From: a virus
Lineage: Duplodnaviria; Heunggongvirae; Uroviricota; Caudoviricetes
Length of the DNA stretch: 18,748 nt
Direction: 5' to 3' (one strand)
IMG/VR virus record: IMGVR_UViG_2703718816_000016
Location: 1-18,748 of that record
Shown here piece by piece: positions 9,001-12,000 of the stretch. A program made the position numbers. Position 1 is the first letter of the stretch. Each line of letters starts with the position of its first letter.

Positions 9001-12000
9001 CGTGGTGAGGCTGATAACAAGGGGTCGATGTGGTGGCCGACGAGTGAGGCAAGTGAAGCGGTCCCAAAAACCACAGCAGAGATGCTGATTAACGCGATTG
9101 AACAGCATGGTCCTCAGTCGGCTGACGAACTGGCGTTAATGTTCGGGATTACCTCCCACCGGGCGAATTCATCACTGGCGATGGCAATCAGCAAAGGTCG
9201 TCTGATTCGCGTTAATCAGGACGGTAAATATCGTTACTGCATACCGGGCGATAATTTACCGACAGAGCCGAAAGCTGCATCGGTAACGGAAACCGATGGT
9301 AAAGCCTTTCCTCAGCCAGCAGGTGTTGCGTTACCAGTCCGGGAAGCGGAAACACAGGAAGAAATTAAAACTGAAAGTGTGGCGGTCACAGTGCAGTCAC
9401 GGCCGTCGTTCACCAGAAAGCATCCGGATAGTCTGATTTTACCATCGCTGCATGTGGCTAACCGCGAACTGCGCCGGGCAAAAGGTCAGGTTCAGAAGTG
9501 GGAGCGAGTCTGTGCTGCGCTGCGTGAGCTGAACAAGCACCAGGATATTGTTCGACAGATTACTGATTCATCCTGTTGTGTTGCATCAGAAAAGTGATTG
9601 CAGGGGACGCTGATGGCAAGAGTATTTACACCAGAAGAGCGGGAAAAAATTAAGGGGCAGGTTGTTGAACTCGTACGCCAGAGCGGTCGCGAGACGTTAC
9701 GGCAACTGGAAGCTAAAACAGGTGCAACAAGATATCTGGTGAGCGTTCTCGCCAGAGAGCTGGTTGCCAGTGGTGATGTATACAACTCTGGCTACGGGTT
9801 ATTTCCGTCTGAACAGGCTCGTAAAGACTGGCAAAACGACCGCAAAAAACTTTCAAGGGAAAAGGCGAAGAAACCGGCTGTGGTTGATCCGGACCTTATC
9901 TGGTCATTACCAGACGGAGAAATACGCCGCTACGACAGGCGCCTGAACATAATCTGTCGCGAGTGCCGGAATAGTGAAGTTATGCAGCGAGTGCTGGCGT
10001 TTTATCAGGGGGTGGGGTCAGGAGGTGGTGCTGTGAGTGAAATTAGCTATCAGGCTTCAATTGCCGCTGGCATTCGCATCAAAGGAGAGGAGCATGGAAA
10101 TAAAACCAGAAGATGAGTTAAGTAATATTGTTTTATTTCCGGTAAAAGAGGATGACCCACGTAATCAGGTTAATTTTCTTTATGAGCCATCGGAAAGACC
10201 ATATTGTCATCACGCCTCTGTCCGGGTTGACGAAAAAGAGCGTCAGGTCCGCTGTAAAATCTGCGGTGCAGTTGTGGAGCCATTTGACTGGATGCTCTCT
10301 GTGGCGAAAAGAGAAACCAGACTGGCAGATGATGTAAGGCTCTTGCGCCAGGAGGAACGGGAAAGGCGGAGAAATGTAGAAAAGCTAATTCAGATTGAGC
10401 GTAACGCGAAAGCGCGGATACGCAGGGCGGCAAAATCAAGAACTGAATAATTAAATTTAGCACTGTTAAAAATTTAATCCTTAACCGGAGGGATTTCTGC
10501 ACCCTCAGAACATCAGGAGGCCGTTCGAAATGGCGGTAGTGAAATGCGAAAATTCAAAATAATTATTGAAACGGGAATAGCTGGTGGAGATTTTGAGGAT
10601 GTATTCGAAGTAGATGATGACGCAACACCTGATGAAATTCATGACGAAGCAAAAGAAATTTTCTTTAACTACTGCAATTACTCATACCACGAAATAAAAG
10701 ATGAAGAGGAAGGACAAAATGGCTGATTTTGGTTCAACTAAATATAACGCCAGTTTTGAAGAATGGCATGAACTGTTAATGGATTATGCAGAGTTACGCG
10801 GTGGAAGTGCCGCTGATGCTGAAGCATAGCGTGATGATTATGAAGCAGGGAAAACTCCGGTCGAAGCATATTGTGATGAGTGGGGCGATGAATGAGCGAG
10901 ATTAATTATCAGGAAGGGCATGAAAAGGCAGGGCAGGCAAAACCAGTGGCATGGCGATATCGCTACGTGAAAAAAGGCGTTACAGACTTTCAGGGGAAGC
11001 AGTGGGCTGGTGACTGGAAATATGTCCAGACAAAAGAAGATTGTAACGACAGACCGAACTATGAAATTCAGGCGTTATTCACGGCCCCGCCAGCCCCGGT
11101 GACATCAGAAGGACTAGTTAAAGCCGTGTGCTTTTATGAACAGGTAAAGCGTGAGAATCCACCAGTCGAAACAGGTGCATGGAAAGATGCTGTTGACTGG
11201 GTACTCAAAGAGGCTTGCCAGGCTGTAAGCATTAGCAACAAAGGGGGGTGAGTAATGCGTGTGGCATGTATCAGTTTGTTACCGTACCCGACTCGTTTTT
11301 GGGCTTCTGCGCTAATTGCAAAGCCGCGTGTCCTGATGGATGACAGCATCATCCCGACACCAAAGCGCCGCCATACCGGTATTGCAGCGGCACGACGAGC
11401 AGCAAAGAAACGCAGGAGAGCAAAACGATGAAAAACCGTAAAGCAAAAATTCTGTTAGCTCGCAGAAACGGTGTTGGTGTCTGGCGGTGGGTGAGGATTA
11501 GTAACAGACGGGTGAGGTTGACGGGGTGTTGCGGTGTTATGGGGCACAGTTGTTGCAAAAAGCCCAGCGCGGCGCAAAACCGCTGGAAAAACCACTGTTA
11601 TCTGCGCACTAAAGGAGAGTGAGATGGCGTTAACACACCGCGAACTCTGTCAGATTGCGTACAAGTTCCTTAAGCGCAACGGGTTCAAGGTTTGCTTTCA
11701 TGACCGCTTTATAGCTGTAACCAGTACCGGAGAACAGCCAGATGCTATGGGATTCAGAAATTCAGCATCATGCCTGATAGAGGCGAAGTGTTCTCGTGCT
11801 GACTTGTTGGCAGATAGAAAAAAGCGTTTCCGTAAAAATCCCTCTCTTGGCATGGGCGACTGGAGATTCTTTATTAGTGAGCCGGGAATTATTTCAATTG
11901 AGGATTTACCACCTGGCTGGGGATTACTTCACGTTGTTAACGGAAGAGTACGGAAAGTACATGGGTGGCCCAAGGGTAATTGCTGTTGGGGTAATCCTGA

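What the first reader, a model, noticed from the sequence alone, without database searches (positions are those of the whole stretch)
10514..10726. Very acidic 60-aa protein behind a 10-codon leader ORF: possible DNA mimic
The ORF at 10544-10726 is about 30 percent Asp/Glu with few basic residues, a composition typical of phage DNA-mimic anti-restriction or anti-defence proteins. Its own SD is weak, but a strong SD (AGGAGG, 10515-10520) sits 9 nt before a 10-codon ORF (MAVVKCENSK, 10530-10562) that overlaps its start in another frame, suggesting leader-peptide or reinitiation control. A hairpin (GAGGG...CCCTC) and an AT-rich stretch lie just upstream.
Basis: inference. Interest (0 to 1): 0.45.

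Follow-up and report, generated by a model that had tools for sequence, protein, structure and literature searches.

The report
Acidic phage gene behind portable junction cassette
The acidic 60-residue ORF is a real, conserved phage gene of unknown function (DUF7167), but its "leader ORF" is a by-product of a point mutation inside a conserved about 100-nt junction cassette that lambdoid prophages of E. coli place in front of many unrelated genes.

Summary
The ORF 10544-10726 is a genuine gene. It matches Pfam DUF7167 and phrog_1997, has dN/dS 0.03-0.15, and its start is fixed by distant homologues that all begin M-[RK]. The whole family is acidic (pI 4.05-4.63), but no sequence or fold match links it to any solved DNA mimic, so its function stays unknown.

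The 10-codon leader is not conserved: its ATG is present in only 16 of 147 gene copies. It arises from a G-to-T change inside a GC hairpin lying between the AGGAGG and the real AUG. The consensus is AGGAGG-CCGCCC-GAAA-GGGCGG-6/7 nt-AUG. This looks like a split ribosome-binding site of the T4 gene 38/25 type (inferred).

The hairpins, the SD and the AT-rich stop block form one cassette (window 10443-10543). It occurs at 2,977 unannotated places in 2,349 of 5,426 complete E. coli genomes. It precedes at least seven unrelated genes and follows at least ten different upstream genes, with crossovers inside it. It therefore also serves as a module-exchange junction. Covariation support for the RNA structure is weak.

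The parts
10094..10450 (+). Upstream gene (zinc-ribbon-like protein, phrog_1621). Its last codons ACT GAA TAA lie inside the junction cassette.
   Evidence: PGAP calls a 357-nt homologue. C-terminus ...KSRTE* is shared by many cassette copies.
10443..10454 (+). Stop block CTGAATAATTAA with a stop codon in each of the three frames (TGA 10444, TAA 10448, TAA 10452). It is the left edge of the cassette.
   Evidence: Read from the sequence. A TGAATAATTAA-like block is present in 143/196 full cassette copies, and stops in all three frames lie within 48 nt upstream in 180/196.
10455..10475 (+). AT-rich linker of the cassette. No sigma-70 promoter-like site was detected.
10476..10537 (+). 62-nt cassette core (AATCCTTAAC - hairpin 1 - AGAACATC - AGGAGG - hairpin 2). 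Single copy in the window.
   Evidence: Covariance model: 97 bits at 10474-10546, next-best hit 12.5 bits.
10488..10506 (+).
   Evidence: Predicted by RNAfold and RNAalifold. 98% of cells paired, no compensatory change.
10515..10520 (+). Strong Shine-Dalgarno AGGAGG, 23 nt upstream of the real AUG.
   Evidence: Mean P(unpaired) about 0.6.
10520..10537 (+). Hairpin 2: consensus G-CCGCCC-GAAA-GGGCGG-U. Here it is degraded to GCCGTTC-GAAA-TGGCGGT by C-to-T, C-to-T and G-to-T changes.
   Evidence: Consensus -15.5 kcal/mol, window -6.4. The 41-nt consensus has z -3.0 with 0/200 shuffles as stable; the window has z -0.33.
10530..10562 (+). 10-codon mini-ORF MAVVKCENSK*. It is lineage-specific, and its ATG is created by the G-to-T change in hairpin 2.
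   Evidence: ATG in 16/147 copies.
10538..10543 (+). 6-nt spacer (AGTGAA) between the base of hairpin 2 and the AUG.
   Evidence: The spacer is 5-10 nt for all seven downstream gene families.
10544..10726 (+). DUF7167 gene: 60 aa, pI 4.1. Predicted fold is a beta-hairpin (2-9, 16-23) plus a helix (29-43) and an acidic tail.
10580..10587 (+). Chi site GCTGGTGG inside the DUF7167 ORF.
   Evidence: Present in 68 of 149 copies of the gene.
10719..10895 (+). Downstream 58-codon gene whose start overlaps the DUF7167 stop (ATGGCTGA). In this window it is interrupted by TGG-to-TAG at 10827-10829.
10892..11251 (+). Next gene of the module (119 aa, phrog_660), with an ATGA overlap to the preceding gene.

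Best explanation
The ORF at 10544-10726 is a bona fide early accessory gene of a Rac/Qin-like lambdoid prophage. It belongs to the uncharacterised family DUF7167 and starts at ATG 10544.

It is not controlled by a leader peptide. The whole upstream region (10443-10543) is one copy of a conserved, portable junction cassette. The cassette consists of:
- an AT-rich block with stop codons in all three frames, which ends whatever gene lies upstream;
- a small hairpin;
- a strong SD (AGGAGG);
- a GC-rich hairpin, usually with a GNRA-type tetraloop;
- a 5-10-nt spacer running into the AUG of whatever gene lies downstream.

Inferred mechanism 1 (split ribosome-binding site). The GC hairpin loops out 16-18 nt, so that an SD lying 23 nt from the AUG in the linear sequence is effectively about 5-7 nt away. 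This is the arrangement shown experimentally for T4 genes 38 and 25.

The second role has a shown part and an inferred part. It is shown by comparative data that the cassette forms many-to-many junctions between upstream and downstream genes, with crossovers inside it. It is inferred that it acts as a patch of homology at which lambdoid phages swap accessory genes while always regenerating a working stop-plus-start junction.

In this window the hairpin carries three substitutions. They weaken it from -15.5 to -6.4 kcal/mol, and one of them creates the ATG of the 10-codon mini-ORF. The leader is thus a derived, minority by-product that probably lowers or perturbs expression of the main ORF.

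The protein is a roughly 55-60-aa beta-hairpin-plus-helix domain that is strongly acidic throughout the family. Its most likely role (inferred, low confidence) is to bind and block a basic, nucleic-acid-binding surface of a host or rival-element protein early in infection.
For: Gene reality and start:
- Pfam DUF7167 53.5 bits against a cut-off of 24.4; phrog_1997 E 1.4e-30.
- 93 cluster representatives at E<=1e-3. Nearly all of the aligned full-length members begin M-[RK]-x at the position of ATG 10544.
- dN/dS 0.03-0.15; ORF intact in 141/147 copies.

Leader not conserved:
- ATG present in 16/147 copies and in 3/40 distinct UTR types.

Hairpin:
- Same register in essentially all copies, -5.4 to -15.9 kcal/mol.
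- Consensus z -3.0, with 0/200 shuffles as stable.
- RNAalifold independently predicts the same helices.
- The loop varies (GAAA, GGCA, GUCA, GAGA) while the stem is largely kept.
- One G-C to A-U double change.

Split-RBS geometry:
- The spacer from hairpin to AUG is 5-10 nt before seven unrelated genes. Only the 10-nt class carries its own GGAG.
- The proximal SD-like GGCGGU is fully paired in the consensus, while AGGAGG and the AUG are largely unpaired.
- Homologues at 70% identity or less, which lack the cassette, have ordinary adjacent SDs.
- T4 precedent: PMC3014915, section 29.

Portability and junction role:
- More than 120 IMG/VR contigs carry the core, and about half are followed by genes other than DUF7167.
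- The table of upstream against downstream genes is many-to-many.
- An identical upstream flank (...MSYHND*) is joined through the SD-hairpin to either DUF7167 or a 72-aa membrane-protein gene.
- 2,977 places in 2,349 of 5,426 E. coli genomes, never annotated, against 1,894 places for the DUF7167 CDS.
- The 5'UTR is 81-87% identical between lineages whose synonymous sites are saturated (dS 1-2.8; third positions 49-65% identical).

Acidity is conserved across the family.
Against: - Covariation is weak. 96.6% of cells pair, but only one pair shows a double-sided change. Shuffling controls reach the observed values, and eight UTR types carry an A.C mismatch at that same pair. The RNAalifold covariation term is -0.21. 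The sequences are too similar (95% column identity) to prove structure.
- High conservation of the cassette could come from repeated recombination (homogenisation) rather than selection on an RNA function.
- No expression, toeprint or reporter data exist for this element. An A-rich unstructured spacer could support SD-independent initiation.
- In this particular window the hairpin is marginal (z -0.33).
- The roles of hairpin 1 and of the invariant AATCCTTAAC are unexplained.
- For the protein there is no evidence of function at all beyond composition, fold prediction (pLDDT 85) and context.
Confidence: 0.55

Rival explanations
1. Leader-peptide or termination-reinitiation control. Ribosomes load at AGGAGG, translate MAVVKCENSK, stop at 10562 and back-scan 16 nt to reinitiate at AUG 10544, so expression of the acidic protein depends on the leader.
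For: In this window the geometry is real: SD, 9 nt, ATG, and the mini-ORF overlaps the main start. The intervening hairpin is weak here (-6.4 kcal/mol), so the mini-ORF is probably translated in this lineage. A similar G-to-T variant giving a mini-ORF also occurs in the cassette before another gene (L119 class).
Against: The ATG is absent from 131/147 copies and from 37/40 UTR types. The peptide shows no sign of conservation. The family's more distant members have no leader at all. The ATG arises from a substitution that breaks a conserved base pair.
Confidence: 0.07
2. Hairpin 2 is a negative or regulated element rather than a distance-shortener. Either it sequesters a proximal weak SD (GGCGGU, 6 nt from the AUG) while AGGAGG acts only as a standby site. 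Or it is the operator of a phage RNA-binding protein (translational repressor or an N/boxB-type factor) that co-regulates all cassette-linked genes.
For: GGCGGU matches GGAGGU at 5/6 positions and is fully paired in the consensus. The stem GCCC/GGGC with a GAAA loop resembles lambda boxB (GCCCU-GAAAA-AGGGC; from my own knowledge). An upstream UCCUUAAC resembles boxA. RNAalifold also predicts a UCCU:AGGA pairing that partly masks the SD. The whole 62 nt is conserved, which is more than a split RBS needs.
Against: - No Rfam family matches.
- The loop is a true tetraloop and varies (GGCA, GUCA), unlike boxB.
- Copies lie mid-operon, directly before start codons, sometimes twice per phage, not at operon starts.
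- The SD stays mostly accessible.
- No candidate binding protein was identified.
Confidence: 0.18
3. The cassette has no RNA function. It is simply a widely shared intergenic sequence that hitch-hikes and is homogenised by recombination. The AUG is used through SD-independent or S1-dependent initiation on the A-rich spacer.
For: Covariation is not significant. Mismatched variants of the hairpin persist (A.C in 8 types; -5.4 kcal/mol variants). Two lineages have lost the SD and the 5' part yet keep the ORF (L004/L005, L070).
Against: - The hairpin-to-AUG distance is held at 5-10 nt before seven unrelated genes, and the longest spacer class has acquired its own GGAG.
- Partial copies retain exactly the SD plus hairpin 2.
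- The element always keeps stop codons upstream and an SD downstream.
Confidence: 0.2
4. The DUF7167 protein is a DNA mimic that blocks restriction-modification, BREX, RecBCD or a similar DNA-binding defence.
For: pI 4.1, net charge -13, and acidity conserved in all 62 diverse members. It is an early-operon accessory gene found among small ORFs near recombination, methylase and SNF2 genes; one contig has an AcrIC5-like gene 4 kb away. Its size is comparable with the small mimics T7 gp5.9 and phi29 p56 (from my own knowledge).
Against: No sequence or fold similarity to any solved mimic. Many small phage proteins are acidic for other reasons. The conserved acidic residues E22 and D25 sit in the E-V-x-D-D-A-T motif, just after strand 2 and before the helix, and may be structural. 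No partner is known.
Confidence: 0.2

Closest known systems
Split ribosome-binding sites of bacteriophage T4 genes 38 and 25 (Nivinskas et al. 1999; Malys and Nivinskas 2009; reviewed in PMC3014915)
   Same: The SD and the AUG are too far apart in the linear sequence (22 and 27 nt in T4, 23 nt here). A stable intervening hairpin brings them to a functional distance (5 and 11 nt in T4, about 5-7 nt here).
   Different: The T4 cases are gene-specific and experimentally proven. Here the arrangement is carried by a mobile cassette that serves many unrelated genes, and it is only inferred from sequence.
PeSL (promoter-early stem-loop) cassettes of T4-type phages RB49 and phi1 (Arbiol et al. 2010, PMC2839356)
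   Same: Both are repeated intergenic cassettes in hyperplastic accessory regions. Both are laid out as upstream-gene stop codons in AT-rich DNA, then a stem-loop, an SD and the start codon of the downstream ORFan. Recombination between copies shuffles gene modules.
   Different: PeSLs contain a strong sigma-70 promoter, and their stem-loop acts as a terminator. Here no promoter-like site is detected and the hairpin has no U-tract. There are about 50 PeSL copies per genome, against 1-2 copies per phage here. Sequence and host-phage group are unrelated.
Conserved 'boundary sequences' between genes of lambdoid phages (Susskind and Botstein 1978; Clark et al. 2001, HK620; as summarised in PMC3233612)
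   Same: These are short conserved intergenic sequences proposed to target homologous recombination to gene boundaries and so generate mosaicism.
   Different: I could not read Clark et al. (not held), so I cannot say whether this particular element was among those described. The exact hairpin sequence occurs in no searchable paper. The translational architecture (three-frame stops plus split RBS) is not part of that concept as summarised.
Acidic DNA-mimic proteins of phages and plasmids (T7 Ocr, ArdA, T7 gp5.9, phi29 p56, PBS2 Ugi, AcrIIA4)
   Same: Small, highly acidic, early-expressed, few basic residues.
   Different: No homology or fold match. No demonstrated partner. The predicted fold (beta-hairpin plus one helix) is generic.
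Pfam DUF7167 / PHROG 1997
   Same: The window protein is a full-length member.
   Different: Nothing: it is a typical member. The family has no known function.

Membership tests
Pfam DUF7167 (PF23768) | Score above the curated gathering threshold over the full domain | tested here: met
   53.5 bits against a cut-off of 24.4; residues 2-53 match profile positions 1-60/60. PGAP names close relatives 'DUF7167 family protein'.
PHROG 1997 | Significant full-length HMM match | tested here: met
   E 1.4e-30, residues 1-56 of 57 profile positions; category unknown function.
DNA-mimic proteins | Strong net negative charge, conserved in relatives | tested here: met
   pI 4.09, charge -13. All 62 members have pI 4.05-4.63.
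DNA-mimic proteins | Sequence or fold relationship to a solved mimic | tested here: not met
DNA-mimic proteins | Carboxylates arrayed like B-DNA phosphates, and binding to a DNA-binding protein | not testable with these tools
   Needs an oligomeric structure and a binding partner. Only a monomer model is available.
Split RBS (T4 gene 38/25 type) | SD-AUG distance beyond the functional range in the linear sequence | tested here: met
   23 nt lie between AGGAGG (10515-10520) and AUG 10544. The same holds in all cassette-linked DUF7167 copies.
Split RBS (T4 gene 38/25 type) | Stable hairpin exactly between SD and AUG that restores a 5-11-nt effective spacing | tested here: met
   Consensus -15.5 kcal/mol, z -3.0, leaving 6-7 nt. 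Before other genes it leaves 5-10 nt. In this window the hairpin is weak (-6.4 kcal/mol).
Split RBS (T4 gene 38/25 type) | Evolutionary covariation supporting the hairpin | tested here: inconclusive
   One G-C to A-U double change, many G.U-compatible changes, but also mismatches. Controls are not exceeded.
Split RBS (T4 gene 38/25 type) | Destabilising mutations reduce translation and compensatory ones restore it | not testable with these tools
   Requires reporter assays or toeprinting.
Leader-peptide / uORF control | Start codon and reading frame of the leader conserved among homologous loci | tested here: not met
   ATG present in 16/147 copies and in 3/40 UTR types.
PeSL-type regulatory cassette | Repeated intergenic cassette flanking variable accessory genes, laid out as stop codons in AT-rich DNA, stem-loop, SD, start codon | tested here: met
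   Layout compared with PMC2839356, Fig. 2 legend.
PeSL-type regulatory cassette | Strong sigma-70 promoter inside the cassette | tested here: not met
   No promoter-like site on the + strand in 9500-11500. By eye, the best -10-like hexamer (TTTAAT) has no usable -35.
PeSL-type regulatory cassette | Stem-loop acting as a transcription terminator or attenuator | tested here: not met
   No terminator-like site on the + strand. Hairpin 2 is followed by AGTGAAATG, not a U-run.
Lambda-type nut site (boxA + boxB) | boxA consensus followed within about 10 nt by a boxB hairpin with a GNRA-like pentaloop, near the start of an early operon | tested here: not met
   The boxA-like UCCUUAAC lies 34 nt from hairpin 2. 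The loop is a 4-nt tetraloop that varies. The element is mid-operon, can occur twice per phage, and has no Rfam hit.

The most novel reading that the evidence does not exclude
The cassette is a dedicated gene-cassette exchange and expression device of lambdoid phages. It would be a universal stop-plus-start junction whose structured RNA gives every inserted accessory gene the same split ribosome-binding site, and possibly a common regulator. Its DNA would be the preferred crossover point for swapping early accessory (anti-defence or host-takeover) genes. DUF7167 would be one such cargo, acting as a charge-mimic inhibitor.
Probability: 0.15. Interest if true: 0.75.

Novelty: new variant of a known kind. 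Interest (0 to 1): 0.5.

Why it matters
For annotation:
- The true start of this widespread small gene is ATG 10544. The 87- and 93-aa forms in public databases are over-extensions.
- An about 100-nt element present in 43% of complete E. coli genomes is currently unannotated.

For phage biology:
- The old question of whether mosaic boundaries fall at gene borders through selection alone or through targeted recombination at conserved linkers can be tested directly on this cassette. It shows many-to-many junctions and crossovers inside a 25-nt SD-hairpin unit.
- If the hairpin works as in T4 genes 38 and 25, this would be the first split ribosome-binding site that is portable between genes. It would also be a ready-made part for synthetic biology.

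The DUF7167 protein remains an uncharacterised, strongly conserved, acidic early protein and is a reasonable candidate for anti-defence screens.

Tried and rejected
- N-terminally extended protein (the 87/93-aa database forms; ATT or an upstream ATG). Rejected: the frame is closed by TAA in the window (10475) and by TAA directly before the ATG in the commonest variant, and distant homologues start at M-[RK].
- GTG 10539 as a start. Rejected: it is in the leader frame and gives 7 codons.
- Known RNA family. Rfam E-value scans of the window region and of a consensus copy gave only noise.
- Promoter or intrinsic terminator in the cassette. None found on the + strand.
- Compensatory change in hairpin 1 (GAGTG/CACTC in the L051 type). 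On counting it is a U.U mismatch in the standard register and pairs only after a register shift, so I do not count it.
- Stem-versus-loop variability statistics on 59 distinct cores. Uninformative, partly because the sample was selected by an exact match to the first 20 nt.
- Further cassette copies in the window. BLAST and a covariance model with filters off find only one.
- Clark et al. 2001 could not be read.
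Full report
**Context.** The window is a Rac/Qin-like lambdoid prophage of E. coli inserted next to potC. From left to right it carries integrase, excisionase, a large exonuclease, dicB/DicF/ydfABC, repressor and cro-like genes, O- and DnaC-like replication genes, a string of small accessory genes, hokD/sok, rusA, Q, a methyltransferase and tRNAs. The finding lies in the accessory string downstream of the replication genes. It is transcribed rightward, with no promoter- or terminator-like site nearby on the + strand.

**Observation.**
- The ORF 10544-10726 encodes 60 residues with 18 D+E (30%), 5 K+R, pI 4.09 and net charge about -13. 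It is the most acidic ATG-started ORF of at least 50 aa on the + strand of the window.
- AGGAGG (10515-10520) lies 9 nt before ATG 10530.
- The 10-codon ORF MAVVKCENSK* ends at 10562, in another frame.
- GAGGG (10488-10492) and CCCTC (10502-10506) form a hairpin, and 10443-10475 is AT-rich.

**The main ORF is a real gene.**
- It matches Pfam DUF7167 above threshold (53.5 against 24.4 bits) and phrog_1997 (E 1.4e-30); both are of unknown function.
- Close relatives occur in 1,619 of 5,426 complete E. coli genomes, in at least 339 IMG/VR stretches and in Stx phages such as ArgO145.
- An exhaustive search finds 93 cluster representatives (50% identity clustering) at E<=1e-3. Most are 50-70 aa, and they come from phages of very different hosts.
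- Nearly all aligned full-length members begin M-[RK]-x at the position of ATG 10544. The 87- and 93-aa forms in databases are therefore over-extended calls.
- dN/dS against relatives is 0.03-0.15, and the ORF is intact in 141 of 147 copies examined.

**The leader ORF is not conserved.** I extracted the 5' region from all fetched loci. The leader ATG is present in only 3 of 40 distinct 5'UTR types and in 16 of 147 gene copies. The majority sequence is AGGAGG CCGCCC GAAA GGGCGG TAGTGAA ATG, whereas the window reads AGGAGG CCGTTC GAAA TGGCGG TAGTGAA ATG. The window allele thus differs by C-to-T, C-to-T and G-to-T. The first two changes keep G.U pairs. The third breaks the loop-closing pair and creates the ATG. 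This refutes a conserved leader-peptide or reinitiation mechanism. At most the mini-ORF is an incidental feature of this lineage, probably translated because its SD spacing is ideal, and probably perturbing the main start.

**What is conserved instead.** A GC-rich hairpin lies between the strong SD and the real AUG.
- In the consensus it is 7 bp (including a G.U formed with the last G of the SD) with a GAAA loop, -15.5 kcal/mol. A 41-nt consensus segment folds with z = -3.0, and none of 200 shuffles is as stable.
- In the window it is only -6.4 kcal/mol (z -0.33).
- Every cassette-bearing copy keeps a hairpin in the same register, at -5.4 to -15.9 kcal/mol.
- Loops vary (GAAA, GGCA, GUCA, GAGA) while the stem is kept.
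- RNAalifold independently returns hairpin 1, hairpin 2 and a 4-bp UCCU:AGGA pairing.
- Formal covariation is weak. 96.6% of cells pair, but there is a single G-C to A-U double change, eight types carry an A.C mismatch at that pair, and shuffling controls are not exceeded. The sequences are too alike (95% column identity) to prove structure by covariation.

**Geometry.** AGGAGG is 23 nt from the AUG, which is outside the usual functional range (established knowledge). With the 16-18-nt hairpin closed, 5-7 nt remain. The only proximal SD-like sequence (GGCGGU) is the 3' arm of the hairpin and is fully paired in the consensus. AGGAGG and the AUG are mostly unpaired, with P(unpaired) about 0.6 and 0.7. 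This is the arrangement shown experimentally for T4 genes 38 (22 nt reduced to 5) and 25 (27 nt reduced to 11). There, destabilising the hairpin lowers translation (PMC3014915, section 29). DUF7167 homologues at 70% identity or less lack the element. They have ordinary adjacent SDs or overlap the upstream gene.

**The element is a portable cassette.** The 68 nt upstream of the AUG are 81-87% identical between lineages whose synonymous sites are saturated (dS 1-2.8, third positions 49-65% identical) and whose further-upstream flanks are unrelated.
Only about half of those copies precede DUF7167.
- The others precede at least six other unrelated ORF families: MTELTKEQLIEE.. and MAELTKEW.. (Ea22-like), a 72-aa membrane protein (MTTLFRKE.. 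/ MKHYLEKN..), MGITKERL.., MLTLKHFI.. and MQDIKENI...
- The distance from the hairpin base to the ATG is 5-10 nt in all of them. The single 10-nt class carries its own GGAG.
- Upstream, 143 of 196 full copies carry a TGAATAATTAA-like block, which holds a stop codon in each frame. 180 of 196 have stops in all three frames within 48 nt. Many different upstream genes terminate in this block.
- A table of upstream C-termini against downstream N-termini is many-to-many. For example...TKSRTE*, the window's upstream gene, is followed by six different genes, and DUF7167 is preceded by at least ten clearly different C-termini.
- Partial copies consist of exactly the SD plus hairpin 2. The same upstream flank (...MSYHND*) is joined through this unit to DUF7167 in ArgO145 and to the membrane-protein gene in other contigs, so crossovers occur inside the unit.
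- In complete E. coli genomes the 62-nt core occurs at 2,977 places in 2,349 of 5,426 genomes, 1-5 per genome. It lies under no annotated feature in any listed hit. The DUF7167 CDS occurs at 1,894 places.
- The core is found in 19 deposited phage records.
- The window has one copy (97 bits with a covariance model; next-best hit 12.5 bits).
- No Rfam family matches, and the hairpin sequence appears in no searchable paper.

**Interpretation of the cassette.** Shown by comparative data: it is a conserved, unannotated junction element that links many different gene pairs, with recombination joints inside it. Inferred:
- (a) It provides a split ribosome-binding site for whichever gene follows.
- (b) It acts as a homology patch that lets lambdoid phages exchange accessory genes while always regenerating a functional stop/start junction.

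The closest described systems are three.
- The PeSL cassettes of T4-type phages have the same layout and the same role in modular shuffling, but they contain a strong promoter and a terminator stem-loop, which this element lacks (PMC2839356).
- The T4 split RBSs are the second.
- The third is the 'boundary sequences' proposed for lambdoid phages (cited in PMC3233612). I could not read the primary paper.

Alternatives remain open. The hairpin could be a repressive or protein-bound element (standby-site model, or a boxB-like operator). Or the cassette could be conserved only through recombinational homogenisation. The invariant AATCCTTAAC, hairpin 1 and the CTGAAT-N6-ATTYAG inverted repeat in the stop block are unexplained.

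**The protein.**
- AlphaFold2 with a 62-sequence alignment gives a confident small domain (pLDDT 85): a beta-hairpin (residues 2-9 and 16-23), a helix (29-43), an aromatic C-terminal segment and an acidic tail.
- BFVD returns only uncharacterised phage proteins from phAPEC8, Lactococcus phage 949 and Streptomyces phage Paedore.
- PADLOC and NCBIfam give nothing.
- Acidity is a family-wide trait: in 62 members pI is 4.05-4.63, charge is -7 to -16 and D+E is 24-35%.
- In distant phages the gene sits in arrays of small early ORFs near ERF/SSB, Dam or N6 methyltransferases and SNF2 helicases.

A charge-mimic inhibitor of a nucleic-acid-binding protein is therefore a reasonable guess (about 0.2), but nothing here tests it.

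**Verdict.** The regulatory interpretation (leader ORF) is refuted by conservation. The DNA-mimic idea is neither supported nor excluded. The real point of interest is the junction cassette with a probable split RBS. I rate it a new variant of known kinds (PeSL-like shuffling cassettes, T4-type split RBS and lambdoid boundary sequences) and moderately interesting.

Noticed in passing
window 10719-10895 (TAG at 10827-10829): The 58-codon gene translationally coupled to DUF7167 (ATGGCTGA overlap) carries a TGG-to-TAG nonsense mutation (W37amber) in this window. In some searches, most other copies of this gene were intact.
   Followed up: yes
window, 11 sites: 164, 1980, 6962, 10580, 13416, 13473, 13874, 14058(-), 15603, 15920, 18086: Chi (GCTGGTGG) is strongly over-represented and strand-biased: 11 sites in 18.7 kb, 10 on the + strand, 0.66 expected from shuffles and 0/200 shuffles reaching 11. 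One lies inside the DUF7167 ORF and is present in 68/149 copies of the gene. This fits the recent report of Chi-rich lambdoid phages (PMC12315714; title and abstract only seen).
   Followed up: partly
window 10443-10460 and equivalent positions in other cassette copies: The stop block contains an inverted repeat CTGAAT-N6-ATTYAG (perfect in some variants, e.g. CTGAATAATTAAATTCAG). One cassette class has CTGAAGATTTAAATCAG followed by a T-rich run. Its function is unknown.
   Followed up: no
window 10476-10485 (AATCCTTAAC) with 10515-10518: UCCU (10478-10481) is predicted to pair with the AGGA of the SD, enclosing hairpin 1. The motif also resembles boxA (UCUUUAAC). It is conserved even in the most divergent cassette-bearing lineages and remains unexplained.
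   Followed up: partly
proteins P0001, P0002, P0004, P0006, P0010; locus L052: Public gene calls of 84-93 aa extend the DUF7167 ORF upstream through the cassette. The representative of one 139-member cluster (P0004) has the start ATG mutated (SERRKFK), and one locus has ATA instead of ATG. These are likely mis-annotations or decaying copies.
   Followed up: partly
PP818812.1 (Actinobacillus phage vB_Apl-pPE4); L084 (Collinsella sp. MAG scaffold); L086 (uncultured Bacilli MAG): A phage record assigned to Actinobacillus pleuropneumoniae and a Collinsella MAG scaffold carry E. coli lambdoid sequence. The phage record holds the cassette at 100% identity, and their DUF7167 genes are 95% and 93% identical to the window's. 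This suggests a wrong host assignment or MAG contamination. The Bacilli MAG holds a genuine distant homologue (50% identity) without the cassette.
   Followed up: no
window 4535-4586 (-), 12602-12777 (+), 17496-17693 (+), 17142-17388 (+): Rfam gathering-threshold hits: DicF sRNA, sok antitoxin RNA (next to hokD), STnc100 sRNA and three tRNA genes downstream of the methyltransferase gene.
   Followed up: no
L002 (ArgO145) 3651-3675 and 4686-4747; L069, L080, L082, L115, L147, L187, L195: Some phages carry two cassette copies about 1 kb apart as direct repeats: one partial (SD plus hairpin 2 only) and one full. They bracket two or three accessory genes. This arrangement could delete or circularise the intervening module, as PeSL mini-circles do.
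   Followed up: partly
L097 1513-3122; L098 1686-4189: In two more distant prophage contexts DUF7167 lies directly after, or close behind, an SNF2-family helicase gene (with a Dam methylase in one). The association may be recurrent but is supported by too few cases to judge.
   Followed up: no
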